Below, piece after piece: positions 35,499 to 58,694 of a stretch of DNA of 64,000 bases (position 1 is the stretch's first letter; each line of letters begins with the position of its first letter). The position numbers were made by a program, and so were the translations under genes. The notes under the pieces were generated by a model. That model was not told where the DNA came from. It saw only the letters and a list, made by a program, of their open reading frames with translations, and made no database searches. Source of the stretch: an uncultured Candidatus Saccharibacteria bacterium (GTDB lineage: Bacteria > Patescibacteriota > Minisyncoccia > Phycocordibacterales > JAKAEA01); NCBI GenBank assembly GCA_964577595.1, contig CAZNZK010000001.1, positions 1,434 to 65,433 of the forward strand, in the 5' to 3' direction.

Positions 35499-35539
35499 TG
35501 CGCATTGCCATTTTTGCTCGCAGGGTGTAAATTTTCTCC

Positions 35540-36541: not shown

Positions 36542-36548
36542 TTAAACT

Positions 36549-37325: not shown

Positions 37326-37351
37326 GCGCGACAATTTGTTATGATACGGTT

Positions 37352-38500
37352 ATGAAATACCGTTTTTCTGCTTTCTCTTTTTGTGTAGTTGTTTTTGTTT
37401 TTTGCACGCCCCCTCACGTATTTGCCGCTACTGCTCAAAGCGTGTGCGTTAGTTTGTCGGTAGGTAGTACTACCGACGCGGGTGACAATTGCTCGCCGCC
37501 GGTAGCCACGTCCACACCAACCACCACACCAACCACCACGCCGGCAACACCGCCCAGTCCATCAACCGTCACCTCGCCAAGCGCGCTTGCTGGCCCGGCA
37601 ATCATCCCCAACGTTAGTGACATCACTGTGGGCTACCAGGGCAATTCGGTGGTTATCAATTGGCATAATCCAACCGACGCGGCACATTTTTCTGGCGTGC
37701 GCATCGTGCGCTCGTCCTACACCGTGCCGCTCGATCAGTTTTCTGGGAAGGTCGTGTATCAAGGTTCCGGCACGTACGCGCTTGATACGGGTGGCATTCC
37801 CGGCACGGTCTATTACTACACCGCTTTCAGTTATGACGCGGTGGGGAATTATTCCTCAGGCGCTGTCTTTTTTGCCGTCTGGCCGAGCGTCGCCCTGCCG
37901 GTAGTGCCGCAATCGCCTAATCAAACTCAAAATCAATTTCCGGTGCAGTCAGTTTTTCCGCCGCTCTTTCCGCAGACAACAAGCTCGTCGTCGCCGCTGT
38001 TACCAAGCACGGGGGGTCGGCAGCTAATTTTTTCGCTAACAGATATCTCATTCATTCAGGACGGTCGCGTGCTTCTTTTAGCGAATAGCACAATTACAGC
38101 CGACGGCACCATGCCGCTCGTTGTGGCAGTTGCCGACAGTGCTGTCGCTAGAAAAATTTCCGGTGGTTTAGCACGGGCAATGATCGCGATAAATATTCTT
38201 GGTCATGAAAGTGCCTATTTGTTGCGCGAGAGCGCGGCCGACCAGGCTTCAGAAGCTCGTCTGGACTTAACAACGGTGCCAGCCGGCGGTTATCCTTTTG
38301 TGGTGGAATTTTGGCCGAATAGGGGAGAGCCTTTCGCCGTTTCCGGTACTCTTGTGGTTACTGGTTCGTCCACTTCAACTGGTATTTTAGGTACTGGTAT
38401 AAGCTTCGCTCAGCTAGGGAAGTTACTCATCTTGCTTGCCCTATTTTCCATTTTTATTTTACTCATTCATCGCGCCCGCCGTCACCAAAACCAGGGCTAA
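37352..38500 (+). CDS. Surface protein with a signal peptide, TPTTTPTTTP linker, fibronectin-III-like domain and a C-terminal TM anchor
   Basis: The Fn3-like segment is GYQGNSVVINWHNPTDAAHFSGVRIVRSSYTVP...GTVYYYTAFSYDAVGN. The C-terminus is LLILLALFSIFILLIHRARRHQ. Confidence 0.7.
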   Translation: MKYRFSAFSFCVVVFVFCTPPHVFAATAQSVCVSLSVGSTTDAGDNCSPPVATSTPTTTPTTTPATPPSPSTVTSPSALAGPAIIPNVSDITVGYQGNSVVINWHNPTDAAHFSGVRIVRSSYTVPLDQFSGKVVYQGSGTYALDTGGIPGTVYYYTAFSYDAVGNYSSGAVFFAVWPSVALPVVPQSPNQTQNQFPVQSVFPPLFPQTTSSSSPLLPSTGGRQLIFSLTDISFIQDGRVLLLANSTITADGTMPLVVAVADSAVARKISGGLARAMIAINILGHESAYLLRESAADQASEARLDLTTVPAGGYPFVVEFWPNRGEPFAVSGTLVVTGSSTSTGILGTGISFAQLGKLLILLALFSIFILLIHRARRHQNQG

Positions 38501-38597
38501 GTCTCGTTAGCAACAATTCAAAAAACACCCCCATATAGTTAGCCATATTTTTGCTGGCTTTTCCCCACGTACCTGGGGATTTCCTGTGTTTATGTCA

Positions 38598-38667
38598 CCT
38601 CGGCTAAGGTATAATTAGCCTTATAAATAAAGGTTTTTTCCTTGCCGAGGTACCTCGGCAAGCCGAG
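38598..38667 (+). promoter_or_regulatory. Promoter and operator region: TATAAT at 38610-38615; perfect 22-bp palindrome CTTGCCGAGGTACCTCGGCAAG at 38641-38662; extra half-sites CCTCGGC at 38598 and GCCGAG at 38662
   Basis: Read directly from the sequence. It is located between the -10 box and the ATG of the HTH gene. Confidence 0.55.
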
Positions 38668-38679
38668 AAAGCCAACGAA

Positions 38680-39108
38680 ATGGAAATTTTGCAAGATTTT
38701 ATTACGGCAGGTCAGGCGGCGAAGCTCGCTGGCTATAACCCTGATTACGTCAGTCAGCTCATTCGCGCCGGAAAAATTCGCGGAAAAAAAGTCGGTAAAA
38801 ACTGGGTAACAACCCGCCATGAATTAAGCCGCTACATACAAGTAGTAGGTGGTAAGCCTTTGCCGATTATTGGCTCCGGTCAGTCGGGTAGCCGCCGTCG
38901 CAATTGGCGCGGCCGTTTCGTGAGCCCGCTGTTTGTCATTGTGGCCGCTTTCATCGCGGGCTTTTTGGCCTTGGTCGGTTTCGGTGTGTATGCGTCCATT
39001 TACAACCAGGCTTTGAGTTCTGCACAAAACGGCTCACAGGCTTCTTCTACGATGACTGGATCAACGGCCGCCGCGGGCAACATTGTCACTAGCTTGCCGC
39101 AGCTATAA
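38680..39108 (+). CDS. Membrane-anchored helix-turn-helix protein (excisionase/MerR-like HTH_17-type N-terminal domain plus one TM helix)
   Basis: The HTH region is ITAGQAAKLAGYNPDYVSQLIRAGKIRGKKVGKNWV. The TM helix is FVSPLFVIVAAFIAGFLALVGFGVYA. Confidence 0.7.
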   Translation: MEILQDFITAGQAAKLAGYNPDYVSQLIRAGKIRGKKVGKNWVTTRHELSRYIQVVGGKPLPIIGSGQSGSRRRNWRGRFVSPLFVIVAAFIAGFLALVGFGVYASIYNQALSSAQNGSQASSTMTGSTAAAGNIVTSLPQL

Positions 39109-39113
39109 AAATC

Positions 39114-42100
39114 ATGTTCTCCCGCAACAACCAACCGAACAAGATTTTCAAAACAACACTCGTGGTGTTGGCGGTGCTTGTTGCGGCCGTAACCCTTTCC
39201 CTCGCCAGCTTCTTCACGGTTGCTCGCGCCGCTATCAACCCGGAAATTAATTACCAAGGCAAACTCACCACTAACACCGGCACGCTCGTTCCGAACGGTT
39301 CCTACAACGTTGAATTCAAACTCTACACCAACACCGGCACGAACATTTGGACGGAAGATGATCTTGTTTTCAACAGTCAGGGCGTTAGCATTACTAGCGG
39401 GCTTTTCAGCATTATGCTCGGCTCCACCACCGCGTTCACCGGCGTCAACTGGAATCAGACACTCTACCTCGGCGTCAATATCGGTAGCACCACTACCAGC
39501 CCCACCTGGGACGGCGAAATGACGCCGCGCAAAATTCTCGGCACTGTGCCAGCTGCATTTGTGGCACAAACACTTAATGGTCTTTCTTCCAGCGAATTCA
39601 TGCGTTCCGATGCTACCAACTCCACTTCCACCGCGAGCACATTCTTCTCCGTAACCCAAAGCGGTGCCGGTGACATTGCGGATTTTATTGGTCAAAACAG
39701 CGCGCCGGTGCTTTACCTCCAGTCCGGCGGCAGTGTTGGCATCGGCACCTCGTCGCCCTGGACTGCGCTTTCCGTGAAAGGCGCCAGTGACCTCGGTAAT
39801 TTTGCTCAAGCCGGCTACTTCGTTGGCACCACTACCGCAACATCAACCCTCGCTGGGGGCTTGCAAGCACTCGCGCTTAACATCACTTCTTCCACGGCTA
39901 GTTCCACATTTGGTAACGGTATCAATTTAGCGAAAGGTTGCTTCTCAGTCGCTGGTACTTGTCTTACTCAGTCTGCCAACTACTGGACTTCTGCTGGCGG
40001 CAACATCTACAACAACACCGGCACCAATGTTGGCATCGGCACCACTACACCGAATTGGAATTTGCAGGTAGCAGGCCAGAGCCCGGTGATCGCCCTCACC
40101 GACACTGGCGCGCCCGCTAATCAACAACACTGGTTCCTGGAAAGTCAGAATGGGGGATTCACTATTGGCACGAGTAGTAATAATCTCTCAGCCACCACCA
40201 CGTATTTGCGTTTTGACAATACAGCCAGCCGCAACAACACAGCTGTTGGCTTCACCGCGCTTTCGGCGGTGACCACCGGTTCGGCCAACGTTGCTCTCGG
40301 TTATCAGGCGGGTCAAGCTGTCACTGGTGCTTTTGATCAGACGCTTGTGGGTTATCAAGCTGGTTACAACACCACCAATAACACTAGTCAGCAGAATACT
40401 TTCCTTGGCTATCAGTCAGGTTTCAATAACACGACGGGTGCTTACAACACGGCTGTTGGCTCTGCCGCTTTTGCCGCCGGTTCCACTGGCAGTTACAACG
40501 TCCTTGTCGGCGCCAGCGCCGGCTACGGTTTTGCTACGTCTGGCTCCAATTCAAATAACGTCATTATCGGCTACAACGCTGTCGGCGGCGCGGCCGCGGC
40601 TTCCACGGGTAACGATACCGTTGTCGGTTATCAAGCTGGTTATACTCTCAATGGCGGCAACAACAACACGTTGTATGGTTTTCAAACTGGATACGGCCTT
40701 TCAAGCGGCGCGAATAATATTTTCCTTGGCTATCAAACCGCTTCCACCACAAGTAGTGGTTCCAATAATATTGCCATCGGGTATAACATTAATTTACCGA
40801 GCGTTAATGGTTCCAATCAATTAAATATTGGCAATATTTTGTACGGTACAGGGTTGACTGGCTCCCTCACCACTTCTGCTGGCGCCATTGGTGTCGGCAC
40901 GAGTAGCCCATGGGCAACACTTTCTGTGCAGGGTCCGGCGCAAAGCACGAGCCCTCTTTTTGCCATCGGCTCCACCACGAACGCAACTCTCTTCGCTATT
41001 CTGGCTAACGGCTTTGTCGGCATCGGCACGAGCACGCCGGCCAGCGAATTAGCGGTGAGCGGCAATGTTTCCATAAAAGAAACCGCAAATAACAACAACT
41101 GGCTTACGCTTTACAACGCTATTGGTAGCACCACTGGCATTATTCGCGAAAATAGCGGCTCTGGCTCCGGTGGCATTTCAATCCAAGGATTCCGTTCCGG
41201 TGGCAATGGTCAGGCCTTGGCTTTTTACGGCAAAGTACTCAAAGATGACGGCACTGAAGTAGCCGGATCTCTGTTTGATGTTATGCAAGGCACTACGGCT
41301 GTCGGCACTACTGGCAACAATGTCACCAACACCCCGATTGCCGCATTTTGTAATAATTACGAAGGCGGTCTCTTCAGTGCCACCACCACCTGTAAAGTTA
41401 TCTTCAGTGCCGCTGGCAACGTCGGCATCGGCACCACCTCGCCCTGGACTACGCTCTCCGTCAACGGCTCAAGTGACCTCGGCAACTTCGCCCAAGCTGG
41501 CTACTTCATTGGCACCACTACAGCAACGTCAACTCTCGCTGGTGGCTTGCAAGCACTCGCGCTCAACATTACCTCAACAACCGCGAGCTCAACCTTTGCC
41601 AACGGCATCAACCTCGCCAAAGGTTGCTACGCTATCGGTGGTAGTTGTTTGAACGTCAACAACTTCTGGACATCGCTCAGCGGCAATATCTACAACAACA
41701 CCGGCACTAACGTTGGTATTGGTACTAGCACACCGAATGCCTCGCTCTTTGTCACCACGGCTGGTCAGCAAAACGGTAGCTCGCCGCTCTTTACTGTGGC
41801 TTCTACCACTGGCGCCTCACTTTTCACCGTGCTTGCCAACGGCAATGTTGGCGTTGGCACCAGCTCTCCATATGGCGCGCTCGGTATGAATGGCACGGTA
41901 GATGCCACGGCCTTCATCGGTAATGGCGCTGGCCTCACGCAGCTTACCGCCGCTGGCTCGTTGGGCGGTATACAATTTAATGACACCCTCATTCTTAATT
42001 CGGACACTATCAACCAGCCGGGTATTAATGACTCTAGTTACAACGTCACTTCTTTTGTTGTTGCGCACGGTTCCCGCTTCAGTATTGGTAACATAGTTAA

Positions 42101-45100
42101 GCAAGAAGCCAGTACTCCAGAATTAATGCTGGTTACGGCCGTTAGTGGCAACACACTCACGGTCTTCAGGAATTATCCAACGGGAGCTTACCCAACGGGT
42201 CGCTCCCAGCTCCTGAATAACGAAGTGTTGGATATCGTCGCACTTAATCAATTTAATTCCGATGCTACGCTTACGTGGGATAATATCAATAAGCGCTTGG
42301 GCGTTGGCACGACCACATTTAGTGGTAACACCATTTTGGCTATCGGCGGTGTAGCGGCCAATAACAATATTGGTTTGAGTCTGGAGGATGGAGGTGTCTC
42401 ACAAGGGTCACTCGTGCTTGATAACACTGATCAGGTTCTGCTTAGTGCTACGAACGGCTCAGGTTACAACAACATTATTCTTAGCGGTGCGAATATTACT
42501 CTGAATGGAGGCCTCAATTCTGCCACCCTTGATCAAAACGGCACCTTTAATGTCGGCGACCTAGTTGACGGTGGCCAAATCACCGTTGGCGGTGCTACGG
42601 GTGTTGGCGCAACGCTTACCGCAACCGAATTAACTTTGGGGGTTGACGATACAATTACTGCGAATGCTGGCTTTGATGGGGGGCTACTCTTTAATAACGA
42701 CAATACTACTGGTTATCAGTGGGAGTCTAATAATCTTTCCATCGCCACACTTGGTTCTACCGGCAATCTTGCCGCCTCTGGCACCATCGCCGTGCAGGGC
42801 ACTGGCACGAGCACGTTTGCTGGCGGCCTCGCCGCAAACATTTTTAACGCTACTTCTGCGACCGCAAGTTCCACCTTTGCCAACGGCATCAACTTAAAGA
42901 ATGGTTGCTACGCCATCAGTGGCGCTTGTATCGGCACCGGCGCGGCAACACTCACTGGCGGCGTGGCTGGCGCGCTCACGTATTGGACGGGTTCTGGCAC
43001 TGTGGGCGCCACCACATCGCCAACGTTTAATGCTTTCTATGCCACCTCAACCACGGCCACCTCCACCATCGCTGGTGCCCTCACTATTGGCTCGACCAAT
43101 ACCAACATCTACCCCAACGCGCCACTTATTCTGACAGGCAACGTCAATAATGCCAGCCAGTTTGTAATGCAAAATTTGAGCAATGGCAGCAATGCCTCGG
43201 CCGATTTGATCGTGGGTGCTGACCTCATGAACAACAGCTCGTATTACGGCGACCTTGGTTACAACAGCTCTGCTAACACTGCTAGCGCGTACACTGGCTT
43301 TGCCGCTAACGACCTCTATCTCTATTCCAGTGACAGTAATCTTGACTTGGCCGCCGCAAGCACTACCGGCCCCGCCAGTATCAACTTCCTCACGGGCGGC
43401 ACTTTGGCGGCGAATGTCCGCATGACCATTGGCAATACCGGTAACGTCGGCATCGGCACTACGAGCCCCTACGCCCGCCTCTCTGTGTGGGGAGCAAACG
43501 CTCTTTCCGGCAGTAATCTTTTCCTGCTTGCCAACAATGCTTCAACGACACTCTTCGCGGTTGATGGCGCCGGCAACGTAAACATTCCTGTGGCGACTGC
43601 CACCACCACTATCGCTGGCGGCTTTGATGTCGGCAACGGCTCGCTCCACTATGAATCGTCCACCGGTCAAACTAATATCAGCAATCTCCAGATAGGGGCT
43701 CTTTCATTCCCGAGCGATTCCGGTGTGCTCACTTGGGCCGACATGCCGGTGACCACGGCTTCAGCCATGGGCACGCTGGAAAGTTACAGTGCTAACATTG
43801 ATGGTAGTGTTCTTTTGACAATTGCGGCGCAGGCAGATGGCTTGGGCGGTATCCAAAACGCCGGTATCGGTATCGGTACGACGAGCCCGATGGCCACCTT
43901 AGCCGTTCAGGGGTTGACCGGTACCACAACGCCGTATCTTTTTGCCGTTGCTAGTTCCACGGGGCAAACATACTTAACTATTGATAATAACGGCACTACT
44001 ACAATTCGGGGAAACTTGGTTGTCTACGGTAATATCGTTCCAGGAAACACGGATACGTATAGTCTTGGTACGGCTTCTTCTACGACGGAATGGAAGAGTT
44101 TGTACGTGGCAACCTCAACGATTTATTTGGGTGGGACGGCCGTAAGTATCAGTAATGGTAGTTTGCTCGTGGGCGGTAATCCGGTGACTGGCGGCGGAGC
44201 CACCACTGAGAAATGGGCAACATCTACCGATCTCACCTCTATATATACCAATACCGCCACCAAAATTGGCATCGGCACGTCGTCGCCTTGGGCAACCCTA
44301 TCCATCACCGGTTCTTCCGATCTTGGTAACTTTGCTCAGGCTGGATACTTCACAGCAACAAGCACGACTGGCACTAGCTATTTCGCGGGCAAGGTTGGTG
44401 TTGCTTCCAGTACTCCTTACGCGAATCTCTCCGTTTCCAGTCTTTCTCAACAAGTTGGCACTTTGCCGCTCTTCCAGGTTGGTAGCACCACTAACGCTTC
44501 GCTCTTTAATGTTCTTGGCAACGGCAATGTCGGCATTGGCACCACTTCACCGTATTCATTCCTTTCAATTCAGACGCCATCCAGTTTTGCCGGTCAGATT
44601 ATTGATATCTCCACCAGTGCTGGCGCGTCACTTCTCCATCTAACGAACGCTGGTAATCTTGGCCTTGGCACCACTTCGCCGTGGAGCACCTTCTCCGTCA
44701 AAGGCTCTTCCGACCTCGGCAACTCCGCTTTGGCCGGCTACTTCACGGGCACCAGCACAGCAACCAGCACGTTCACCGGTGGCCTCGCCGCAAACATCTT
44801 CAACGCTACTTCTGCGACCGCCTCTTCCACCTTCGCCAACGGCATCAACCTTACGAACGGTTGCTACGCCATTGCGGGCACTTGTTCCACTATTGGTTCC
44901 GGCTCTGCTGGCTGGTTGTCATATTACGCCGGTACTGGCCAGGCGCTTACCGCCACCTCTTCCATCTTCCTTGCTACTAGCGGCAACGTTGGTGTCGGTT
45001 CTACCACGCCCTATGCCACGCTTTCCGTTTCCACCCCTGGCCAACAAATTGGCACCCTGCCGCTCTTCCAGGTCGCCTCAACCACCAAGGCCGCCATCTT

Positions 45101-46640
45101 CAGTGTCTTTGGCAACGGTCTTGTTGGCATCGGTAGTAGCACGCCATGGGCATCGCTCGGTATCTCTACACTCGCCCAGCAAGCTGGCACGCTGCCGCTC
45201 TTTAGTGTGGCTTCTACGACAGGCGCACAAATCTTCACGGTTACGGGCAACGGCACGTTTACCTATGGTGTCAACTCAACGTCCACCATTCCTAACAACA
45301 CTACTGGCGCTTGGATAATTTCTACCTCAACAGCCGCCAATGCCACACCGCTCTTTAGGATTGATACAACGACCAATGCTGAAAAAATTGTCCTCGGCAC
45401 AGCCTCGAGTAGCGACGTGATTATTGGCGATAACGGCATTTCACCCAACCTCGTCTTCTACAACAGTGGCACTATCAAGGGCTTTACCAGCGGCGGTTCA
45501 ACCATCACACTCGGTTCCGGCAACGACATCATCAACTCCGCGGTCAAATTCGGCATCGGTTCTACCAGCCCGTGGCGCGCACTTTCCGTTAACGGCACGG
45601 CCGCCTTTACCGGTCTTACATCTTCGGTTACTGGCACTGCGGTATGTATCGCCGCCGGCACGGGTGAGCTCTTGAACTCTGGCGGCTCTAGCTGTACGCC
45701 GTCATCAATTCGTTTCAAAGAAAACGTCAACACACTAAGTCCGGGCTTTGCTCTTAATGAGCTTGATGAATTACGCGTGGTCTCTTTTGATTACAAGCCC
45801 GGCGATTATCCTACGTGGGATAGCCCGCATTCTTACGGTATGATTGCTGAAGAGGTTCAGCAGATTGACCCAACCTTGGTAGATTATGGTAGCGATGGTC
45901 AGCCCTTCTCCTTGCGCTTTGAAAAAATCACCGGTCTTACTGTGCAAGCCATTCAGGAATTGAATTTGAATTTGGAGACAATCGCTTCCACTACTGCAAG
46001 CACGACGCCGGAATCACAAGGTTTTGCCAGCGCCTTCTTCGGTAATTTGTTCCACCAAATCAGCACCTGGCTGGCCAGCACCACTAACGGCATCAGCGAC
46101 CTCTATGCCACTGTCTTCCATAGTAATGAAGTAGATACTAACAAGCTTTGCGTTGGCACAACCTGCGTTACGCAACAGCAATTTATGGCGATGGTAAATG
46201 CTTCAGTCAATAATGGGGGAGGTTCGTCTGGTACCACTTTTAGCGGATCTAGCGTCGGCACCGGTAGTACAAGTGGAACAACGGGTGGCACTACTACGAC
46301 AGCTGGCACCACAACCACGGCCACGAGTACCGACACAACCACGAGTTCGGGTACTGGTTCGGACACGGCCACAACCACTCCCGTGACCACGACAGGTGGG
46401 GGTGATTCTGGCACGACATCCGCCACAACAACCGATACTACAACTAACACAACAACCGGCGACACGAATACTAATCCGGCTACGCCGACTACCGATACAA
46501 CCACCACAAGCACCGACACCACATCCACCACTAATACAACCAGCTCAACTGACACCACGAGCGCAACCGATGCGTCCACACCAGCGCCAACAACTCCCGC
46601 GCCCAGTTCTGACACAACGAGCCCAACCACGACACCATAA
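39114..46640 (+). CDS. Giant (2508 aa) tail-fibre-like surface protein: signal anchor, conserved N-terminal INYQGKLT module, many repeats of the (N)VGIGT(T/S)SP(W/Y)..LSV type, a C-terminal peptidase-S74-like intramolecular chaperone (CIMCD) domain, then a ~140-aa Thr-rich tail
   Basis: The N-terminal TM helix is followed by AINPEINYQGKLTTNTGTLVPNGSYNVEFKLY. The repeat unit ...GIGTSSPWT.LSV.G.SDLGNFAQAGYF.GTTTATST... recurs. A Ser-Lys dyad, SSIRFK, is encoded at 45702-45719. The region around that dyad through DELRVVSFDYKPGDY...GMIAEEVQQIDP resembles the endosialidase CIMCD. The T-rich tail spans about 46210-46637. Confidence 0.9.
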   Translation: MFSRNNQPNKIFKTTLVVLAVLVAAVTLSLASFFTVARAAINPEINYQGKLTTNTGTLVPNGSYNVEFKLYTNTGTNIWTEDDLVFNSQGVSITSGLFSIMLGSTTAFTGVNWNQTLYLGVNIGSTTTSPTWDGEMTPRKILGTVPAAFVAQTLNGLSSSEFMRSDATNSTSTASTFFSVTQSGAGDIADFIGQNSAPVLYLQSGGSVGIGTSSPWTALSVKGASDLGNFAQAGYFVGTTTATSTLAGGLQALALNITSSTASSTFGNGINLAKGCFSVAGTCLTQSANYWTSAGGNIYNNTGTNVGIGTTTPNWNLQVAGQSPVIALTDTGAPANQQHWFLESQNGGFTIGTSSNNLSATTTYLRFDNTASRNNTAVGFTALSAVTTGSANVALGYQAGQAVTGAFDQTLVGYQAGYNTTNNTSQQNTFLGYQSGFNNTTGAYNTAVGSAAFAAGSTGSYNVLVGASAGYGFATSGSNSNNVIIGYNAVGGAAAASTGNDTVVGYQAGYTLNGGNNNTLYGFQTGYGLSSGANNIFLGYQTASTTSSGSNNIAIGYNINLPSVNGSNQLNIGNILYGTGLTGSLTTSAGAIGVGTSSPWATLSVQGPAQSTSPLFAIGSTTNATLFAILANGFVGIGTSTPASELAVSGNVSIKETANNNNWLTLYNAIGSTTGIIRENSGSGSGGISIQGFRSGGNGQALAFYGKVLKDDGTEVAGSLFDVMQGTTAVGTTGNNVTNTPIAAFCNNYEGGLFSATTTCKVIFSAAGNVGIGTTSPWTTLSVNGSSDLGNFAQAGYFIGTTTATSTLAGGLQALALNITSTTASSTFANGINLAKGCYAIGGSCLNVNNFWTSLSGNIYNNTGTNVGIGTSTPNASLFVTTAGQQNGSSPLFTVASTTGASLFTVLANGNVGVGTSSPYGALGMNGTVDATAFIGNGAGLTQLTAAGSLGGIQFNDTLILNSDTINQPGINDSSYNVTSFVVAHGSRFSIGNIVKQEASTPELMLVTAVSGNTLTVFRNYPTGAYPTGRSQLLNNEVLDIVALNQFNSDATLTWDNINKRLGVGTTTFSGNTILAIGGVAANNNIGLSLEDGGVSQGSLVLDNTDQVLLSATNGSGYNNIILSGANITLNGGLNSATLDQNGTFNVGDLVDGGQITVGGATGVGATLTATELTLGVDDTITANAGFDGGLLFNNDNTTGYQWESNNLSIATLGSTGNLAASGTIAVQGTGTSTFAGGLAANIFNATSATASSTFANGINLKNGCYAISGACIGTGAATLTGGVAGALTYWTGSGTVGATTSPTFNAFYATSTTATSTIAGALTIGSTNTNIYPNAPLILTGNVNNASQFVMQNLSNGSNASADLIVGADLMNNSSYYGDLGYNSSANTASAYTGFAANDLYLYSSDSNLDLAAASTTGPASINFLTGGTLAANVRMTIGNTGNVGIGTTSPYARLSVWGANALSGSNLFLLANNASTTLFAVDGAGNVNIPVATATTTIAGGFDVGNGSLHYESSTGQTNISNLQIGALSFPSDSGVLTWADMPVTTASAMGTLESYSANIDGSVLLTIAAQADGLGGIQNAGIGIGTTSPMATLAVQGLTGTTTPYLFAVASSTGQTYLTIDNNGTTTIRGNLVVYGNIVPGNTDTYSLGTASSTTEWKSLYVATSTIYLGGTAVSISNGSLLVGGNPVTGGGATTEKWATSTDLTSIYTNTATKIGIGTSSPWATLSITGSSDLGNFAQAGYFTATSTTGTSYFAGKVGVASSTPYANLSVSSLSQQVGTLPLFQVGSTTNASLFNVLGNGNVGIGTTSPYSFLSIQTPSSFAGQIIDISTSAGASLLHLTNAGNLGLGTTSPWSTFSVKGSSDLGNSALAGYFTGTSTATSTFTGGLAANIFNATSATASSTFANGINLTNGCYAIAGTCSTIGSGSAGWLSYYAGTGQALTATSSIFLATSGNVGVGSTTPYATLSVSTPGQQIGTLPLFQVASTTKAAIFSVFGNGLVGIGSSTPWASLGISTLAQQAGTLPLFSVASTTGAQIFTVTGNGTFTYGVNSTSTIPNNTTGAWIISTSTAANATPLFRIDTTTNAEKIVLGTASSSDVIIGDNGISPNLVFYNSGTIKGFTSGGSTITLGSGNDIINSAVKFGIGSTSPWRALSVNGTAAFTGLTSSVTGTAVCIAAGTGELLNSGGSSCTPSSIRFKENVNTLSPGFALNELDELRVVSFDYKPGDYPTWDSPHSYGMIAEEVQQIDPTLVDYGSDGQPFSLRFEKITGLTVQAIQELNLNLETIASTTASTTPESQGFASAFFGNLFHQISTWLASTTNGISDLYATVFHSNEVDTNKLCVGTTCVTQQQFMAMVNASVNNGGGSSGTTFSGSSVGTGSTSGTTGGTTTTAGTTTTATSTDTTTSSGTGSDTATTTPVTTTGGGDSGTTSATTTDTTTNTTTGDTNTNPATPTTDTTTTSTDTTSTTNTTSSTDTTSATDASTPAPTTPAPSSDTTSPTTTP
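39753..40055 (+). repeat. Intragenic ~300-nt direct repeat, copy 1 (about 85% identical to 41439-41737)
   Basis: Read directly from the sequence. A third, more diverged copy lies at about 44270-44420. Another pair lies at about 42830-42900 and 44770-44860. Confidence 0.7.
41439..41737 (+). repeat. Intragenic ~300-nt direct repeat, copy 2
   Basis: This copy aligns with 39753-40055 nearly codon for codon. Confidence 0.7.
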
Positions 46641-47701
46641 TGTTAAAAACACCCACAATAAAAAAAATAAACCGGTGCCTGACCCCCATTCTTATTTTCG
46701 TTATACTTTTTTCGTTTCCAGGCGTGCTTGAAGCGGCGGCTATCAACGGCTACACGGTTGTATTTATAACCAACGGCACCACGAGTTGGGTGCCCCGTAG
46801 TGATTGGAACCCGGCTTCAAATACGGTGGAGCTTATTGCCGGCGGCGGCGCGGGGGCGAGTGGGTTAAACGCCACAAGCTCCACTGCGTCCCCGGGTGGC
46901 GGTGGTGGTGCGGGAGGCGCGTACGTTAAACTTTCCAACGTTAGTTTGGTTGTTGGCGACGTGGTGCAAATGTCCGTGGGCGCGGGCGGAGCCACGAGCA
47001 CGCTTACCTCAACGGCCGGCGGCGACACGTGGTTTTGGTCAAACACTTTTGCGCTCGCCAAAGGTGGCGGTGGAGCCTCAACGACCAGTAACTATGATGG
47101 CGGTGCCACCACGACTGGTTCGCTTGGTCCAATAATAAAAAACGGAGGCTATGGTGGCGGTAGTGGCGGTGTTGGTGGCTCTACGTGTACGGCAAGTGGC
47201 GGTGGCGGTGGCGGCGGCGGCGCGGCGGGGCCGGACAAGTCGGGTGTGGCTGCGGCCACGAGCACAGCCAGCACGTGTACCACAACAAACACTGCCGGCA
47301 CTGTCGGCGGCACTGCTGATGGTGCAATAGTTGCCGGCGGCACAGCTGGCGCGGCGGGAGGTGCTGGTGCAATTGGTGGTAAAGGCGGTGCTGGTACTGC
47401 TGGAAGTATGTACACAGCCAACCCTGTTGGCACAACGGGCGGCTCAGGAAGCGGCGGCGGCGGGGGAGGCGGTGCTAAAAGTACATTTGCCGGCGGTGGC
47501 GGAGGCTTGGCCGGTAACTATGGTGGCGGTGGCGGTGGAGGTGGGGGTGCAGGAGGCACTGCCGCAACTAAAGGCGGCCCTGGCGCCAACGGCGCTCCTG
47601 GCCTTATTGTTATCAGTTTTACTGAATTAGCTAGCACTACTGCGCGGCGAATCCGCTTGCTCGGCGGTGTTACATTTTTAGGTGGCGTCCGGCTTTACTA
47701 A
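46640..47701 (+). CDS. Secreted Gly-rich protein (GGxGG-type low-complexity repeats), translationally coupled to the giant gene (TAATG)
   Basis: The signal peptide is MLKTPTIKKINRCLTPILIFVILFSFPGVLEA. The body is G-rich and the C-terminus reads GGPGANGAPGLIVISF. Confidence 0.7.
   Translation: MLKTPTIKKINRCLTPILIFVILFSFPGVLEAAAINGYTVVFITNGTTSWVPRSDWNPASNTVELIAGGGAGASGLNATSSTASPGGGGGAGGAYVKLSNVSLVVGDVVQMSVGAGGATSTLTSTAGGDTWFWSNTFALAKGGGGASTTSNYDGGATTTGSLGPIIKNGGYGGGSGGVGGSTCTASGGGGGGGGAAGPDKSGVAAATSTASTCTTTNTAGTVGGTADGAIVAGGTAGAAGGAGAIGGKGGAGTAGSMYTANPVGTTGGSGSGGGGGGGAKSTFAGGGGGLAGNYGGGGGGGGGAGGTAATKGGPGANGAPGLIVISFTELASTTARRIRLLGGVTFLGGVRLY
46670..46685. repeat. Half-copy, in reverse orientation, of the GGGTCAGGCACCGGTT repeat family, embedded in the signal-peptide codons of the 46640 gene
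   Basis: It reads AACCGGTGCCTGACCC and matches 16 of 16 positions. With flanks, 21 of 22 positions match copy A. Confidence 0.7.
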
Positions 47702-47718
47702 AAACACTTTATATATAC

Positions 47719-48321
47719 ATGCAACGCCGAACTCTCTTTCTTTCCATAATAGCCATCTGCTTGGTTGCGTTGGCACTTGTCGCGATATTCTTTATATATG
47801 TATATCATCACGCCGATCCAGAATCTCTTGCACGTGTTGACGTGCCTGGCCCTGCCGTTCCCACTAGCCCCATGATTGCTGAAACTCTGCCTGATGGCCA
47901 GAAATCCTATGTCAATAAGTACTATCATTTCTCGCTAGTATATCCACCCGATCTTGCTCTTACGGAATATGCTGAAGCCGGCGGCGGTCGCACTATCGTT
48001 TTTCAGGAAAACCCGGCCACTAATACGCCTATTTCAGCCCAGAAAAATCTCAACGGTTTCCAAATTTTCATCATTCCCTATGCCGACTCGGAGCTTTCCG
48101 ATGCCCGTTTCAAGATGGATGAACCCTCCGGCATTCATGATGACCCGCAGAATGTCGTCATTGGCGGTGTCACCGGCACTATTTTTTACGGCCGCAACTC
48201 CATCATGGGGGACACGCGCGAGCTCTGGATAATCCACGGTGGTTTTCTCTATGAAATCACCACATATAAGCCCCTGGATTCTTGGCTCGCTGGTATAATG
48301 AGCACCTGGAAATTCCTATAA
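47719..48321 (+). CDS. Hypothetical protein with an N-terminal TM helix
   Basis: The TM helix is LFLSIIAICLVALALVAIFFIYVY. A TATA-rich box lies immediately upstream of the ATG. Confidence 0.55.
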   Translation: MQRRTLFLSIIAICLVALALVAIFFIYVYHHADPESLARVDVPGPAVPTSPMIAETLPDGQKSYVNKYYHFSLVYPPDLALTEYAEAGGGRTIVFQENPATNTPISAQKNLNGFQIFIIPYADSELSDARFKMDEPSGIHDDPQNVVIGGVTGTIFYGRNSIMGDTRELWIIHGGFLYEITTYKPLDSWLAGIMSTWKFL

Positions 48322-48322
48322 A

Positions 48323-50533
48323 ATGAAAAAATATTTCTCAAAAATTTCTATAGTGCCCGCCATCTTCATTGTTGTGGCTTGCGTCGCGCCGCAGGCCGCC
48401 AAGGCTGCGGTTATTCAGGCGCCAATTTCTCTCGGCACCCTCGGTAATGGTCTTGTTGACTACTACACTATGGATGGCGTGAATATCAACTGGGGTACTG
48501 GCGTGGTTGCTGATAATTCTAATCATGGTAACACTGGCATTGTGACTAATATGGGCACGACGACGTCGCCTGTGGCAGGGAAGGTTGGGCAAGCGCTTAC
48601 TTTTAATGGTACGAATCAATACGTGAATGCTTCGGGAATACCATCGGTCAGTAACCCGCTTACTGTTGCCGTTTGGATTAATCCATCAGCACTTTCCCAA
48701 TCAAGTTTTAGCGCTGGCTCCGGAGGCACTATTATTGATGAAAATGAAGGCGGCGGAACCAGTGGTTGGGTTCTTGGTGTAAAAAATAATAACACCGTCT
48801 GGTTCTGGCCTTCTTCTGGTAATGATAAATACAGCACGGCGACCATTCCACTTAATACTTGGACGCATGTGGTGATAACCTACGATGGCACCAATATCCG
48901 TTTTTATATTAACGGTGGGCTTGATAGCACTCAGGTCATGTCTGCTCCCCAGGGGTCGGCCACCTTTTTCCGGGTAGGCGGAAAATCGTGGATAACGGGC
49001 TATTGGAAGGGTGGTTTGGACGATGTGCGTATCTATAATCGGGCGCTTTCAACTGCCGAGGCAAAACAGCTCTATGGTCTTGGTACCAGTAAAACTAACG
49101 CCGTCTCTTCGGCGAGTCCTTTGGCTAGCGGCTTGATTGGTTACTACACCCTAGACACCGCGAATATTAATTGGGGTACCGGCGCTGTCGCCGATAGTTC
49201 TGGTAATGGTCACACGGGCACAGTGACCAACTTAAGCACGCCAGCTTCAGTCGTGACGGGGCAGATCGGGCAGGGAATCTCATTTACCGGTAGTAATCAA
49301 TATATTGACACTACCAACTATGCCGACAATCCCAGCAATCTTTCTGTTGCTGGGTGGTTTAAATCCGGTGGAGATCAGACTCATAGTTTCTTGGTTGACA
49401 AAATGAGTAATTTTGGCAACGGGGCGGGTTGGACAGTGTATTTCAACCAAATATCCGGCGGAATGGAAATAGGTTTTGTAACTCAGGAAGCCGGCGGGAG
49501 TAATTGGGAGCAATACCAAAATCATTCTGATATTCCCGCTGATGGGCTATGGCACCATTTTGTGGCAACTCTCAGCGGTGGTCCTGGTAATGGAGGTATC
49601 ATTCTCATTTATATCGATGGATCGAGTGTGTCGCTGGACAATCTCAGTCGTGGAACATTTACCACTATAACTACCGCTGTCAATGTTAGAATGGGTAATG
49701 ACAGTGATGTAGAAAAGCAATTTATTGGTTCTCTCGATGATGTCCGTGTGTATAATCGCACTCTTTCTGCCACTGAGGTGAGTCAGCTTTATGCGCTTAC
49801 AACCAATACTGCTATCACGAAAGCGGCACCGGTGTACCTCAACACGTCATTAACGGGCGTGGGTGGCACGTTGACCCGCGGCCTTGTTGGTTATTGGACA
49901 ATGGACGGCGCAAATATTAATTGGAAAACTGCTGCAGTCGCTGATAACTCTGGCTATAGCAATGTTGGTGCGATGGTTACTATGAGCACGAGCACATCGC
50001 CTGTGGCAGGGAAAATTGGCCAGGCACTTAATTTCGTAAAATCTTTTTCACAGTATGTGAGTGTTCCTAGTAGCGTGATTACTCCACTCGTGACCACTGG
50101 CCTGGCCTCGGTTGCTTTTTGGATGAAGCCGGCGACGCTCGCGAGCTATTCTGCGCCTTTTGATTGCGGTCAAAGCGGCACATCTCGTCAGCTCAGTATG
50201 CTTATTAATAGCGCCGGTGGCGGCACCGTGGCCGCCAAAGGTGTTGCTGGTGCCGCCGCCACCTATTCTCCCGCTTGGACAATCGGTCAATGGCAGTTTG
50301 TAGTCATGACTGTTGATGCGACGAATTTCAAAACATATAAAAACGGCGTGCTCAACAGCACTACGGCTGGTGCGATTGGTTCTGGTTTTACCGACACCAG
50401 CGCCATTTGCCAGGTAGGAGGTAATCCCAGTGGCGGGGGTTCTAGTTTTGACGGTTCCATTGACGACGTTCGCGTCTATAACCGCGTACTCACCGCAGGC
50501 GAAATCACCCAGCTCTACAATCTCAGCAAATAA
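48323..50533 (+). CDS. Secreted protein with three tandem concanavalin-A-like/LamG (Laminin_G_3-like) domains
   Basis: There is a signal peptide. The three repeats each start (L)VDYYTMDG/LIGYYTLD/LVGYWTMDG..NINW..AVAD.SG...G. Each ends (L/I)DDVRVYNR.L...E..QLY. The ATG is 1 nt after the upstream stop. Confidence 0.85.
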   Translation: MKKYFSKISIVPAIFIVVACVAPQAAKAAVIQAPISLGTLGNGLVDYYTMDGVNINWGTGVVADNSNHGNTGIVTNMGTTTSPVAGKVGQALTFNGTNQYVNASGIPSVSNPLTVAVWINPSALSQSSFSAGSGGTIIDENEGGGTSGWVLGVKNNNTVWFWPSSGNDKYSTATIPLNTWTHVVITYDGTNIRFYINGGLDSTQVMSAPQGSATFFRVGGKSWITGYWKGGLDDVRIYNRALSTAEAKQLYGLGTSKTNAVSSASPLASGLIGYYTLDTANINWGTGAVADSSGNGHTGTVTNLSTPASVVTGQIGQGISFTGSNQYIDTTNYADNPSNLSVAGWFKSGGDQTHSFLVDKMSNFGNGAGWTVYFNQISGGMEIGFVTQEAGGSNWEQYQNHSDIPADGLWHHFVATLSGGPGNGGIILIYIDGSSVSLDNLSRGTFTTITTAVNVRMGNDSDVEKQFIGSLDDVRVYNRTLSATEVSQLYALTTNTAITKAAPVYLNTSLTGVGGTLTRGLVGYWTMDGANINWKTAAVADNSGYSNVGAMVTMSTSTSPVAGKIGQALNFVKSFSQYVSVPSSVITPLVTTGLASVAFWMKPATLASYSAPFDCGQSGTSRQLSMLINSAGGGTVAAKGVAGAAATYSPAWTIGQWQFVVMTVDATNFKTYKNGVLNSTTAGAIGSGFTDTSAICQVGGNPSGGGSSFDGSIDDVRVYNRVLTAGEITQLYNLSK

Positions 50534-58691: not shown

Positions 58692-58694
58692 TTT

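What the first reader, a model, noticed from the sequence alone, without database searches (positions are those of the whole stretch)
38680..50533. Translationally coupled operon of about 12 kb: membrane HTH, 2508-aa tail-fibre-like giant, Gly-rich fibre protein, TM protein and triple-LamG lectin
The gene junctions show tight coupling. The HTH stop lies 5 nt before the giant ATG. The giant and the Gly-rich gene overlap as TAATG. The 47719 gene has a leaderless-type start. The 48323 ATG lies 1 nt after the preceding stop. The giant protein has phage tail-fibre hallmarks: a C-terminal S74-type intramolecular chaperone domain and a Gly-rich companion protein. The adjacent excisionase-type HTH suggests the module is phage-derived and was domesticated as an adhesion or host-interaction apparatus. 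Small-genome episymbiotic bacteria are known to rely on giant surface proteins, but this particular five-gene combination is not one I recognise as described.
Basis: partly seen in the sequence, partly recalled or inferred. Interest (0 to 1): 0.65.

Follow-up and report, generated by a model that had tools for sequence, protein, structure and literature searches.

The report
Conserved surface-fibre gene cluster in Patescibacteria
The five genes are real, but they are the variable end of a larger, widely conserved Patescibacteria gene cluster that most likely builds a long self-processing surface fibre on a wall-anchoring platform, giving a concrete candidate for how these tiny bacteria attach to other cells.

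Summary
All five ORFs, their junctions (5 nt gap, TAATG overlap, 17 nt, 1 nt) and the domain calls hold up: HTH_17 plus a TM segment, a C-terminal Peptidase_S74 domain, and three LamG domains. "Leaderless-type start" is wrong, because only 2 of 45 genes in the window have an SD-like motif.

The five genes are not the conserved unit. In related loci the recurring cluster is:
- a membrane-tethered HTH;
- four exported proteins, which lie upstream at 34833-38500. One of them (U2) is a homologue of the Firmicutes WxL-interacting protein;
- a fibre carrying the conserved "INYQGKL" N-terminal domain.

With at least 6 kb of upstream sequence, 33 of 39 metagenome loci show HTH or U genes. The genes downstream of the fibre vary: a multi-LamG protein in 9 of 32 S74-fibre loci, the PsbP-fold TM protein near S74 fibres in 6 of 7 informative contexts, and the Gly_rich_2-type protein in 3 loci. 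One locus fuses the Gly-rich domain to three LamG domains.

The fibre has the architecture of Bdellovibrio MAT fibres, with Ser2197 and Lys2202 conserved. Apart from weak PHROG tail-family matches for the Gly-rich protein, similarity to phages is limited to the S74 domain. No phage genes are nearby, and the locus sits next to the same RRM gene in 8 further fibre loci, so recent phage origin is not supported.

Verdict: a new variant of known kinds, moderately interesting.

The parts
34833..35498 (+). U1: exported 221-aa beta-rich protein, paralogue of U3.
   Evidence: Collinear homologues lie upstream of the fibre genes in L007 and L015 and in many metagenome loci. No match to Pfam WxL or any other family at E<=1.
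35540..36541 (+). U2: homologue of WxL-interacting protein (WxLIP), with signal peptide, Ig-like domains and a C-terminal TM anchor.
   Evidence: The family profile A4 hits PDB EfmWxLIP1 (9i25, 9i1y) at E 1e-11. 33 of 68 family members hit Pfam WxLIP_PGBD. The family has 5609 cluster representatives at E<=1e-3. Orthologues in L007, L015 and L016 score E 1e-66 to 1e-78.
36549..37325 (+). U3: exported 258-aa beta-rich protein, paralogue of U1.
   Evidence: Orthologues score E 1e-36 to 1e-56 in L007, L015 and L016. It sits at a conserved position between U2 and U4.
37352..38500 (+). U4: exported 382-aa protein with a C-terminal TM anchor. Orthologues carry fibronectin-III domains.
   Evidence: Orthologues score E 1e-14 to 1e-22. 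Orthologues in L015 and L016 match fn3 at E 1e-11 to 1e-14. TM segments are shown.
38641..38662 (.). Perfect 22-bp palindrome CTTGCCGAGGT/ACCTCGGCAAG, 17 nt upstream of the HTH start codon. It could be an operator or a 5' hairpin; its function is unknown.
   Evidence: unique in the window, with 0 matches expected by chance. Hairpins at a similar position occur in some related loci but with unrelated sequences.
38680..39108 (+). HTH-TM: short member of a family of membrane-tethered excisionase/MerR-type HTH proteins. HTH at residues 8-54, basic stretch, TM at 78-109, and a 33-aa external tail.
   Evidence: Family members flank the cluster in 29 of 39 loci that have at least 6 kb upstream, and sit directly next to the fibre gene in 28 loci. 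58 of 61 have a TM segment and all share a conserved HTH motif.
39114..39230 (+). Giant fibre, residues 1-39: signal peptide or N-terminal anchor, ending ...VARA|AINPE.
   Evidence: Hydrophobic segment at residues 8-41. The conserved domain starts immediately after it in 82 homologues.
39231..39701 (+). Giant fibre, residues 40-196: conserved N-terminal beta-sandwich domain (INYQGKL...MTPRK), the proposed cell-proximal docking domain.
   Evidence: 82 of 120 listed homologues carry it at about 50-60% identity. There are 474 relatives in metagenomes. AF2 model pLDDT is 88-96 over model residues 11-100. No significant PDB fold match.
39702..45701 (+). Giant fibre, residues 197-2196: shaft with 14 [VI]G[IV]G[TS]xxP loop motifs and four repeated C-x6-C modules.
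   Evidence: The same motif occurs at least twice in 37 of 39 long N-domain proteins.
45702..45983 (+). Giant fibre, residues 2197-2290: Peptidase_S74 intramolecular chaperone. Predicted nucleophile is Ser2197 (codon 45702-45704) with Lys2202.
   Evidence: Pfam E 6.5e-9, above the cut-off. Ser, Arg and Lys are invariant in A1. The profile hits phage chaperone-domain structures: 8jov at 1.8e-13, 6f45, MyRF 7dc3, T5 8hqz and phi29 3gud.
45984..46637 (+). Giant fibre, residues 2291-2508: lineage-specific extension after the chaperone domain (conserved FF.N.F..W.AD..NGI...LCV..TC[IV]T) followed by a 123-aa tail that is 51% Thr.
   Evidence: The extension is present in 16 of 45 S74-bearing homologues. 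No phage match covers it.
46640..47701 (+). Exported Gly-rich protein (29% Gly), a divergent member of the Gly_rich_2 (PF21722) superfamily.
   Evidence: hhalign against PF21722-bearing proteins gives probability 99.8, E 8.6e-28, with shared non-Gly motifs. phrog_863 scores 6.7e-7. It is found after S74 fibres in L003 and L024. It is fused to three LamG domains in L013.
47719..48321 (+). TM200: N-terminal TM helix plus an external PsbP/Mog1/DUF1795-like alpha/beta domain. A rare family, with 16 clusters found.
   Evidence: AF2 pLDDT is 85.5. Foldseek matches PsbP at E 1e-4 with probability 1.0, and also Tsi3, Apa and DcrB. It lies within 2.5 kb downstream of an S74 fibre in 6 of 7 informative contexts.
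48323..50533 (+). Exported protein with three tandem LamG / concanavalin-A-like lectin domains.
   Evidence: Laminin_G_3 three times, E 1.3e-71. Full-length relatives at about 30% identity lie 1-10 nt after S74 fibre genes in L014, L018, L020, L021, L022, L023 and L026; the LamG proteins directly after the L013 and L058 fibres are shorter, and L013's full-length relatives lie further downstream.

Best explanation
The region is the distal part of a chromosomal gene cluster, widespread in Patescibacteria (Parcubacteria/Paceibacteria), that builds a cell-surface fibre adhesin.

Shown:
- A conserved gene order of membrane-tethered HTH, U1, U2 (WxLIP homologue), U3 and U4, followed by a fibre gene.
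- The fibre product has a signal peptide, a conserved N-terminal beta-sandwich domain, a long repetitive shaft and, in about half of the complete proteins, a C-terminal S74 chaperone domain with an intact Ser-Lys dyad.

Inferred mechanism:
- All products are exported by Sec.
- U2 is anchored by its C-terminal TM helix and, together with U1, U3 and U4, forms a wall-associated platform, as WxLIP does with WxL proteins in Firmicutes.
- The fibre's N-terminal domain docks on that platform.
- The fibre trimerises from its C-terminal S74 domain, which then cuts itself off at Ser2197 and exposes the distal tip.
- Scaling from the Bdellovibrio Bd2133 tip (about 370 residues, 150 A; PMC10769870), the roughly 2000-residue shaft would reach about 80 nm. 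This is a rough estimate.
- The downstream genes are exchangeable accessories of the tip or of assembly: the triple-LamG protein and the Gly-rich protein as glycan or target-binding partners, and TM200 as a membrane-anchored PsbP-fold chaperone or scaffold.
- The HTH-TM protein is most likely a ToxR-like one-component regulator of the cluster.
- The apparatus is the organism's candidate device for recognising and holding on to host cells or surfaces.
For: - Domain identities: S74; N-domain fold; U2 is WxLIP; Gly_rich_2; TM200 fold.
- All products carry export or TM signals.
- Synteny, genome loci: U1-U4 lie immediately upstream of N-domain fibres in L007, L015 and L016, and partly in L014.
- Synteny, metagenome loci: of 39 loci with at least 6 kb upstream, 33 have HTH or U genes, 29 have HTH and 17 have U2.
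- The window's own order (U1-U4, then a short HTH, then the fibre) recurs in L044, L045, L051, L059, L069 and L106.
- Downstream linkage: LamG directly after the fibre in 9 of 32 S74-fibre loci (24 of them patescibacterial); fibre, Gly-rich, TM200 in L003 and L024; fibre, TM200, LamG in L062.
- A Gly-rich plus three-LamG fusion occurs in L013.
- Architecture matches the experimentally characterised Bdellovibrio MAT fibres. Those have a signal peptide, a conserved ~130-aa beta-rich N-domain, a trimeric beta-helix with capping loops, an S74 domain (SDxxxK) in 13 of 21 members, and surface localisation (PMC10769870).
- The WxL/WxLIP model of a wall-bound platform carrying long adhesins is described in PMC10599100 and PMC9772566.
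Against: - No expression, localisation or binding data exist, and the organism is uncultured.
- U1 and U3 show no detectable WxL domain, so the platform analogy rests on U2 alone.
- Docking of the N-domain on the U proteins is inferred only from co-occurrence. 6 of 39 well-covered loci lack both HTH and U genes upstream.
- The fibre was modelled only as a monomeric N-domain. Trimer formation and self-cleavage are untested.
- The roughly 220 residues that follow the chaperone domain are atypical and unexplained.
- LamG genes are common in this genome (three in the window), and genes are tightly packed in general, so part of the adjacency could be incidental.
- The 80 metagenome loci are those most similar to the query and include near-duplicates (L044/L045, L065/L066, L078/L081).
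Confidence: 0.6

Rival explanations
1. One reading: a phage tail-fibre module, or prophage remnant, recently captured and domesticated together with its excisionase-type HTH.
For: The S74 domain is typical of phage fibres, and 60 phage records match it. The Gly-rich protein weakly hits phage tail families: phrog_863 at 6.7e-7 and phrog_2683 at 0.0023. The HTH hits excisionase PHROGs and TIGR01764 below their cut-offs. The N-domain model has weak fold matches to small Caudovirales proteins and to the N-terminal parts of actinophage minor tail proteins (best E 6e-4, TM 0.35-0.5).
Against: - Phage sequence matches cover only the S74 domain, at 26-37% identity.
- The N-domain and the Gly-rich protein have no match in 50,697 phage records, and the N-domain has none in IMG/VR contigs.
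- There is no integrase, capsid, tail-tube or baseplate gene nearby. The neighbours are rpoB, rpoC, dnaG, rpoD, an addA-like gene, dsbA, bipA and kup.
- GC content is not distinctive.
- The HTH belongs to a membrane-tethered family.
- The cluster keeps the same RRM-gene flank in 8 further fibre loci, and its N-domain has 474 or more relatives in metagenomes.
Confidence: 0.07
2. The downstream genes (Gly-rich, TM200, LamG) are unrelated surface-protein genes that sit next to the fibre only because the genome is compact and rich in such genes. There is then no functional module beyond HTH, the U genes and the fibre.
For: Gaps of 20 nt or less occur in 42% of same-strand pairs. Three LamG proteins lie in this 64-kb window. 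Gly-rich plus TM200 occur without a fibre in L004. Many fibres are followed by other genes. Relatives have the order fibre, LamG, RRM without Gly-rich or TM200.
Against: LamG directly follows the fibre, with gaps of 1-10 nt, in 9 loci. TM200, a family of only 16 clusters, lies close downstream of an S74 fibre in 6 of 7 informative contexts. A Gly-rich plus three-LamG fusion sits downstream of a fibre in L013.
Confidence: 0.18
3. The fibre is mainly an enzymatic tailspike-like depolymerase or a structural envelope component, not an adhesin. In the enzymatic version it degrades host or environmental polysaccharide, with LamG as a carbohydrate-binding helper.
For: The founding S74 proteins are endosialidases and tailspikes (established knowledge; PMC10769870 compares the MAT cleft with the P22 tailspike). 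LamG/ConA-like folds occur in glycanases (name of Pfam PF13385).
Against: No catalytic domain is detected anywhere in the 2508 residues by Pfam, NCBIfam, PHROGs or PDB sequence search. The shaft consists of short repetitive loop motifs typical of fibres, not of a single large beta-helix enzyme.
Confidence: 0.1

Closest known systems
Bdellovibrio bacteriovorus MAT (mosaic adhesive trimer) fibres, S74 subgroup (PMC10769870)
   Same: - A signal peptide followed at once by a conserved beta-rich N-terminal domain that has no PDB homologue.
- A long repetitive fibre with recurring V-G-x-x-x-x-P-x-x-x-L-type loops.
- A C-terminal S74 domain with a Ser-x4-Lys dyad.
- Co-existing S74 and non-S74 members: 15 against 12 here, 13 against 8 in Bdellovibrio.
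- Encoded by a bacterium that lives on other cells.
   Different: - Homology of the two N-domains could not be tested, because no MAT N-terminal sequences were available.
- The loop motif here has one extra residue before the Pro.
- The catalytic motif is SSxRxK rather than SDxxxK.
- A conserved extension of about 95 aa and a Thr-rich tail follow the chaperone domain.
- The genes sit in a fixed cluster with a WxLIP homologue and a membrane HTH, which is not reported for MATs.
- The host phylum has a different envelope type.
Phage tail fibres and tailspikes with a C-terminal intramolecular chaperone (K1F endosialidase, T5 pb1, S16 long tail fibre, phi29 gp12)
   Same: The S74 fold and catalytic residues. 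The profile matches 8jov, 6f45, 8hqz and 3gud.
   Different: - There is no virion context.
- The protein has a Sec signal peptide and a cell-specific N-terminal domain instead of a baseplate-attachment domain.
- It has an extra C-terminal extension.
- Identity to phage sequences is only 26-37%, and only within the chaperone domain.
WxL / Csc cell-surface clusters of Firmicutes (WxLIP plus small and large WxL proteins; PMC10599100, PMC9772566)
   Same: One WxLIP-type protein (Ig-like domains plus a C-terminal TM helix) is flanked by two small exported beta-rich paralogues, next to a very long multi-domain surface protein and a further anchored protein. The proposed role is a wall-bound platform that presents an adhesin.
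   Different: - U1 and U3 have no detectable WxL domain or Trp-x-Leu motifs.
- The long protein carries its conserved domain at the N-terminus, not a C-terminal WxL domain.
- There is no LPxTG protein.
- The cluster occurs in Patescibacteria rather than in low-GC gut Firmicutes.
ToxR/CadC-type membrane-tethered one-component regulators
   Same: Topology only: a cytoplasmic N-terminal DNA-binding domain, a basic stretch, a single TM helix, and an external C-terminal part of variable length. The gene lies next to its presumed target genes.
   Different: The DNA-binding domain is of the excisionase/MerR type (HTH_17), not an OmpR-type winged helix. DNA binding and regulation are untested. The window's version has only 33 external residues.
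Giant adhesin-domain surface proteins reported in other Patescibacteria (for example Absconditicoccaceae, PMC13059738)
   Same: Very large exported proteins with concanavalin-A-like, fibronectin-III and similar domains, proposed to mediate host contact.
   Different: Those reports list domains of individual proteins. None of the Patescibacteria papers examined mentions S74, WxLIP or this gene cluster.

Membership tests
Peptidase S74 / intramolecular chaperone auto-processing domain | Match to Pfam PF13884 above the gathering score | tested here: met
   36.4 bits against a cut-off of 22, E 6.5e-9, residues 2197-2256. The profile of 12 relatives hits solved phage chaperone domains at E 1.8e-13.
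Peptidase S74 / intramolecular chaperone auto-processing domain | Catalytic Ser-Lys dyad, S-x4-K (SDxxxK in phages and MATs) | tested here: met
   S2197-S-I-R-F-K2202. Ser, Arg and Lys are invariant in alignment A1 and align with SDERLK and SDRRIK of the phage structures. The position after Ser is Ser rather than Asp.
Peptidase S74 / intramolecular chaperone auto-processing domain | The domain forms the extreme C-terminus and is released by self-cleavage after trimerisation | not testable with these tools
   Cleavage needs an experiment. About 220 further residues follow the domain here, which departs from the classical layout.
MAT-type fibre adhesins (Bdellovibrio) | Signal peptide followed directly by a conserved beta-rich N-terminal domain of about 130 aa | tested here: met
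   Residues 40-196 are conserved at 50-60% identity in 82 homologues, always just after the signal peptide. The domain is modelled as a beta-sandwich. This is an architectural match only.
MAT-type fibre adhesins (Bdellovibrio) | Homology of the N-terminal domain to the MAT N-domain | not tested
MAT-type fibre adhesins (Bdellovibrio) | Capping-loop motif V-G-G/N-pi-x-x-P-x-x-x-L recurring along the fibre | tested here: inconclusive
   There are 14 copies of [VI]G[IV]G[TS]xxPxxxL. The motif resembles the MAT motif but has one extra residue before the Pro.
WxL / Csc cluster | A full-length WxLIP (PGBD plus HBD plus C-terminal TM helix) | tested here: met
   The U2 family profile against EfmWxLIP1 gives E 1e-11 over the PGBD. 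33 of 68 members hit PF06030. A C-terminal TM helix is present. The HBD part aligns only weakly.
WxL / Csc cluster | At least two WxL-domain proteins within four genes of the WxLIP | tested here: not met
   U1 and U3 occupy those positions, but none of the 33 family members hits the WxL family or any other relevant family at E<=1. There is no PDB sequence match and no Trp-x-Leu motif in the consensus. Fold-level similarity was not tested.
Excisionase / MerR-type HTH_17 | Match to PF12728 or TIGR01764 above the cut-off | tested here: inconclusive
   PF12728 scores 25.3 bits against 27. TIGR01764 scores 21.6 against 28.8. The HTH motif is strongly conserved across 61 cluster-linked relatives.
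Prophage or phage tail module | Neighbouring phage structural, integration or lysis genes, or a match to phage genomes beyond single domains | tested here: not met
   Neighbours are housekeeping and surface genes. Phage matches are restricted to the S74 domain.
Gly_rich_2 (PF21722) glycine-rich domain | Match to the family profile | tested here: inconclusive
   There is no direct Pfam hit even at E<=10. Profile-profile comparison with six PF21722-bearing proteins gives probability 99.8 and E 8.6e-28, with shared W.vPsDWN, GGDTWF and GlIvItY motifs. Glycine bias inflates the score.
LamG / concanavalin-A-like lectin (PF13385) | Match above the gathering score | tested here: met
   240 bits against a cut-off of 27.6, in three stretches.
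PsbP / Mog1 / DUF1795-like fold (TM200) | Fold match of a confident model | tested here: met
   Model pLDDT is 85.5. Foldseek matches PsbP structures at E 1e-4 to 1e-3, probability 1.0, target TM-score 0.5-0.6. There is no sequence-level family hit.

The most novel reading that the evidence does not exclude
The cluster is a phylum-wide, so far undescribed host-attachment organelle of Patescibacteria. A WxLIP-based wall platform (U1-U4) carries exchangeable, self-processing MAT-like fibres. Expression is switched by a membrane-tethered HTH that senses the outside. The conserved fragment released by S74 cleavage (chaperone domain, extension and Thr-rich tail) has a second function of its own, for example as a secreted factor or a signal.
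Probability: 0.3. Interest if true: 0.8.

Novelty: new variant of a known kind. Interest (0 to 1): 0.6.

Why it matters
How Parcubacteria-type Patescibacteria recognise and hold on to partner cells is largely unknown. In the papers searched here, experimental work centres on type IV pili and a few adhesins in Saccharibacteria.

This analysis defines a conserved, recognisable gene cluster with hundreds of relatives in metagenomes. It also assigns testable roles to its parts: an anchor platform, a fibre with a predicted cleavage site at Ser2197, lectin accessories and a membrane-bound regulator.

Two further points follow:
- WxLIP-type surface clusters extend beyond Firmicutes.
- The Bdellovibrio-type fibre architecture extends to a second, unrelated group of bacteria that live on other cells, which suggests a common solution to the problem of grasping other microbes.

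Tried and rejected
- The promoter and terminator scan of 34-52 kb was at chance level and uninformative.
- PDB sequence searches with the giant, the Gly-rich protein and TM200 gave nothing usable.
- The word-indexed homologue search with the Gly-rich protein was swamped by low-complexity candidates and did not return even the query itself.
It was repeated with 4 closer sequences.
- The N-domain gave no significant PDB fold match and only weak, generic beta-sandwich matches in BFVD. I do not treat these as evidence of phage origin.
- Phage and viral searches with the N-domain, and the phage search with the Gly-rich protein, were negative.
- U1 and U3 showed no WxL or other family or structure match by sequence.
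- The cluster-member look-up of U2 relatives returned no organism names.
- The MAT paper's supplements hold no N-terminal sequences.
- Tested whether the 22-bp palindrome upstream of the HTH gene is a conserved operator. Hairpins occur at a similar position in some loci, but with unrelated sequences, so it remains only a note.
- Literature searches for S74 or endosialidase-chaperone terms with Patescibacteria/CPR found nothing relevant. The WxL + Patescibacteria search returned one unrelated paper.

Full report
**1.

The five ORFs are at exactly the stated coordinates. The junctions were read from the DNA: TAA, 5 nt, ATG between the HTH gene and the giant; a TAATG overlap between the giant and the Gly-rich gene; a 17-nt gap before 47719; and a 1-nt gap before 48323.

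Pfam gives the following:
- HTH_17 for the first protein, E 1.8e-5, at 25.3 bits against a cut-off of 27.
- Peptidase_S74 at residues 2197-2256 of the giant, E 6.5e-9, above the cut-off.
- Three Laminin_G_3 domains in the last protein, E 1.3e-71.

The HTH protein has one TM segment at residues 78-109. The other four proteins each start with a hydrophobic segment.

Two details need correcting:
- SD-like motifs precede only 2 of 45 genes in the window. The "leaderless-type" start of gene 47719 is therefore the norm for this organism.
- Gaps of 20 nt or less occur in 13 of 31 same-strand pairs. Tight spacing alone is weak evidence for coupling.

The consensus promoter and terminator scan is at chance level and decides nothing.

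The window matches a 250-kb metagenome contig (ENA ERZ27245386). All relatives that carry a name are Patescibacteria (Parcubacteria/Paceibacteria).

**2. The giant protein**

Domain map:

| Residues | Feature |
|---|---|
| 1-39 | Signal peptide (...VARA\|AINPE) |
| 40-196 | Conserved N-terminal domain |
| 197-2196 | Shaft with 14 [VI]G[IV]G[TS]xxP loop motifs and four C-x6-C modules |
| 2197-2290 | S74 domain |
| 2291-2385 | Conserved extension |
| 2386-2508 | Tail, 51% Thr |

- Ser2197, Arg2200 and Lys2202 are invariant among relatives.
- The family profile matches solved phage intramolecular-chaperone domains and MyRF: 8jov at E 1.8e-13, 6f45, 7dc3, 8hqz and 3gud.
- The N-terminal domain occurs in 82 of the 120 listed homologues at 50-60% identity. 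It always follows the signal peptide directly and is fused to varied distal parts.
- The N-terminal domain has at least 474 relatives in metagenome contigs.
- It models as a beta-sandwich, with pLDDT 88-96 over its core, and has no significant PDB match.
- Of 27 complete proteins with this domain, 15 end in S74 and 12 do not. Those ending in S74 are 851-3754 aa long, so 2508 aa is ordinary for the family.

**3. The conserved unit is not the five genes**

The four genes just upstream all encode exported or anchored proteins: U1 at 34833-35498, U2 at 35540-36541, U3 at 36549-37325 and U4 at 37352-38500. None has a Pfam hit.

They are collinear homologues of the four genes immediately upstream of N-domain fibres in genome loci L007, L015 and L016, and partly in L014. 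Only those fibres carry the N-domain.

In 80 metagenome loci retrieved with the N-domain, the usual order is HTH-TM, U1, U2, U3, U4, fibre. The variants are:
- U1-U4, then a short HTH-TM, then the fibre. This is the window's order, and it is also seen in L044, L045, L051, L059, L069 and L106.
- HTH, HTH, fibre.
- HTH, fibre.

Counts:
- Of 39 loci with at least 6 kb upstream, 33 have HTH or U genes, 29 have HTH and 17 have U2.
- HTH-TM abuts the fibre gene in 28 loci. Gaps run from -44 to +108 nt and are mostly -4 to +10.

The sample is biased towards close relatives of the query and contains a few near-duplicate contigs.

**4. What the upstream genes are**

- **U2** belongs to a very large family, with 5609 cluster representatives at E<=1e-3.
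  - Its profile matches the solved Enterococcus faecium WxL-interacting protein EfmWxLIP1 at E 1e-11.
  - 33 of 68 members hit Pfam WxLIP_PGBD.
  - Like WxLIP, it ends in a TM helix.
- **U1 and U3** are paralogues. They occupy the positions that two WxL proteins hold in Firmicutes clusters (PMC10599100). They show no WxL domain by sequence.
- **U4** orthologues carry fibronectin-III domains and a C-terminal anchor.
- **The HTH protein** belongs to a family with a strongly conserved N-terminal HTH motif. 58 of 61 members have a TM segment. The window's copy is a short form with only 33 external residues.

**5. The downstream genes are variable accessories**

Among 32 S74 fibres with visible downstream sequence, 24 of them patescibacterial, a LamG protein follows directly in 9, with gaps of 1-10 nt. 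In seven of the nine (L014, L018, L020, L021, L022, L023, L026) it is a three-domain, roughly 650-750-aa relative at about 30% identity over the full length; in L013 and L058 it is shorter.

TM200 is a rare family of 16 clusters. It lies within 2.5 kb downstream of an S74 fibre in the window and in L003, L008, L017, L024 and L062, but not in L004. Its model (pLDDT 85.5) is a TM helix plus a PsbP/Mog1/DUF1795-like domain.

The Gly-rich protein is a divergent Gly_rich_2 relative:
- hhalign gives probability 99.8 and shared non-glycine motifs, although the score is inflated by glycine bias.
- The order fibre, Gly-rich, TM200 recurs in L003 and L024.
- L062 has the order fibre, TM200, LamG.
- L013 encodes a single protein that fuses a Gly-rich domain to three LamG domains, downstream of an S74 fibre. 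This ties the Gly-rich and LamG genes together functionally.

An RRM-protein gene, at 50686-50982 in the window, closes the cluster in 8 further fibre loci, L011, L014, L018, L020, L021, L023, L056 and L065. This points to a stable chromosomal locus whose content between the fibre and the RRM gene is exchangeable.

**6. Most likely mechanism**

Shown: the domain identities, the export signals, the conserved catalytic residues and the synteny.

Inferred:
- U2, together with U1, U3 and U4, forms a wall-associated platform.
- The fibre's N-domain docks on that platform.
- The fibre trimerises from its S74 domain, which then cuts itself off at Ser2197 and exposes the tip.
- LamG and the Gly-rich protein bind targets at or near the tip.
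- TM200 acts as a membrane-anchored chaperone or scaffold.
- HTH-TM acts as a ToxR-like regulator.

Scaling from the Bd2133 tip (about 370 residues, 150 A; PMC10769870) gives a shaft of roughly 80 nm. This is a rough estimate.

**7. Comparison with what is known**

The closest described system is the Bdellovibrio MAT fibre family. It has the same layout: a signal peptide, a conserved beta-rich N-domain without PDB homologues, a trimeric fibre with recurring loops, and S74 in 13 of 21 members. MAT fibres are shown to sit on the predator surface and to self-cleave.

- Membership of the S74 family is met.
- Membership of MAT by homology of the N-domain could not be tested.
- Membership of the WxL cluster is met for WxLIP but not for the WxL proteins.

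New here are the fixed association of a WxLIP-type cluster, a membrane-tethered HTH and MAT-like fibres in Patescibacteria, and the conserved extension after the chaperone domain. Full-text searches found no relevant paper that links S74 or WxL with Patescibacteria. The Patescibacteria papers I checked mention only generic adhesin domains.

**8. Phage origin**

- Phage records match only the S74 domain, at 26-37% identity.
- The N-domain and the Gly-rich protein have no match in the phage records, and the N-domain has none in viral contigs.
- Weak hints remain. The Gly-rich protein hits phrog_863, a tail-fibre-assembly family, at 6.7e-7. The N-domain model has generic beta-sandwich matches to small Caudovirales proteins, best E 6e-4.
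- No phage genes flank the locus, and the flank is conserved.

The module shares ancient domains with phage fibres. It is not a recent phage capture.

**9. Verdict**

The finding is best described as the variable distal half of a conserved Patescibacteria surface-fibre cluster.

- It is a new variant of known kinds.
- It is moderately interesting (0.6) because it offers a concrete, testable candidate for host attachment in a group with almost no experimental handles.
- The main weaknesses are the lack of any expression or localisation data, the unproven platform-to-fibre contact, and the unresolved identity of U1 and U3.

Noticed in passing
window 38641-38662: A perfect 22-bp palindrome (CTTGCCGAGGT/ACCTCGGCAAG) lies 17 nt upstream of the HTH start codon, in the only long intergenic gap of the cluster (38501-38679). 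A TATAAT box lies about 25 nt further upstream. The palindrome is unique in the window. It could be an operator or a 5' hairpin.
   Followed up: partly
window 34693-34729: A near-perfect 18+18-nt inverted repeat lies between the minus-strand gene ending near 34700 and U1 (34833). It could be a bidirectional terminator or a regulatory site at the 5' edge of the cluster.
   Followed up: no
window, whole: Shine-Dalgarno-like motifs precede only 2 of 45 predicted genes. Translation initiation in this organism evidently does not rely on SD pairing.
   Followed up: partly
window 57393-59666: Cytochrome bd oxidase subunits I and II are encoded in a Patescibacteria genome. A Kup potassium transporter lies nearby at 53550-55544.
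   Followed up: no
window 20587-24564 and 31395-33305: Two further exported LamG-domain proteins (1325 aa and 636 aa) are interspersed with housekeeping genes (rpoB, rpoC, dnaG, rpoD, an addA-like helicase-nuclease). LamG surface proteins are abundant in this genome.
   Followed up: partly
window 50686-50982; L011, L014, L018, L020, L021, L023, L056, L065: A 98-aa RRM-domain protein gene is the conserved 3' neighbour of the fibre cluster across divergent loci, at about 50-63% identity.
   Followed up: partly
L013:7566-10790: A single 1074-aa protein fuses a Gly-rich (Gly_rich_2-type) domain to three LamG domains. It lies downstream of an S74 fibre and among three other LamG genes.
   Followed up: yes
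L003:7348-7713 and L003:8881-9999: A 23S_rRNA_IVP-family gene and an AAA_14/DUF4143 ATPase gene are inserted between the fibre, Gly-rich and TM200 genes of a related genome. They look like selfish or mobile insertions into the cluster.
   Followed up: no
window 47640-47698 (Gly-rich protein C-terminus); L003, L024: The Gly-rich proteins end in a conserved basic and hydrophobic tail (ARRIRLLGGVTFLGGVRLY, ARVIRLKGGTRLLGGARLR). It is absent from the short L004 homologue and from the fusion protein. Its function is unknown; it could be a sorting or docking signal.
   Followed up: no
L058, L094, L103, L113: Some contigs carry tandem or duplicated copies of the cluster. Examples are an S74 fibre and LamG followed by a second HTH-U1-U4-fibre set, and duplicated U1-U2 pairs. 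This suggests several fibre systems per genome.
   Followed up: no
L071, L074, L078, L080, L081, L092, L096, L098, L100, L101, L103, L115: Two distinct HTH-TM paralogues lie in tandem directly upstream of the fibre gene, usually without U1-U4. One has the motif GQLCR and a TM segment near residue 240-300. The other has the motif RLAREGK and a TM segment near residue 100.
   Followed up: partly
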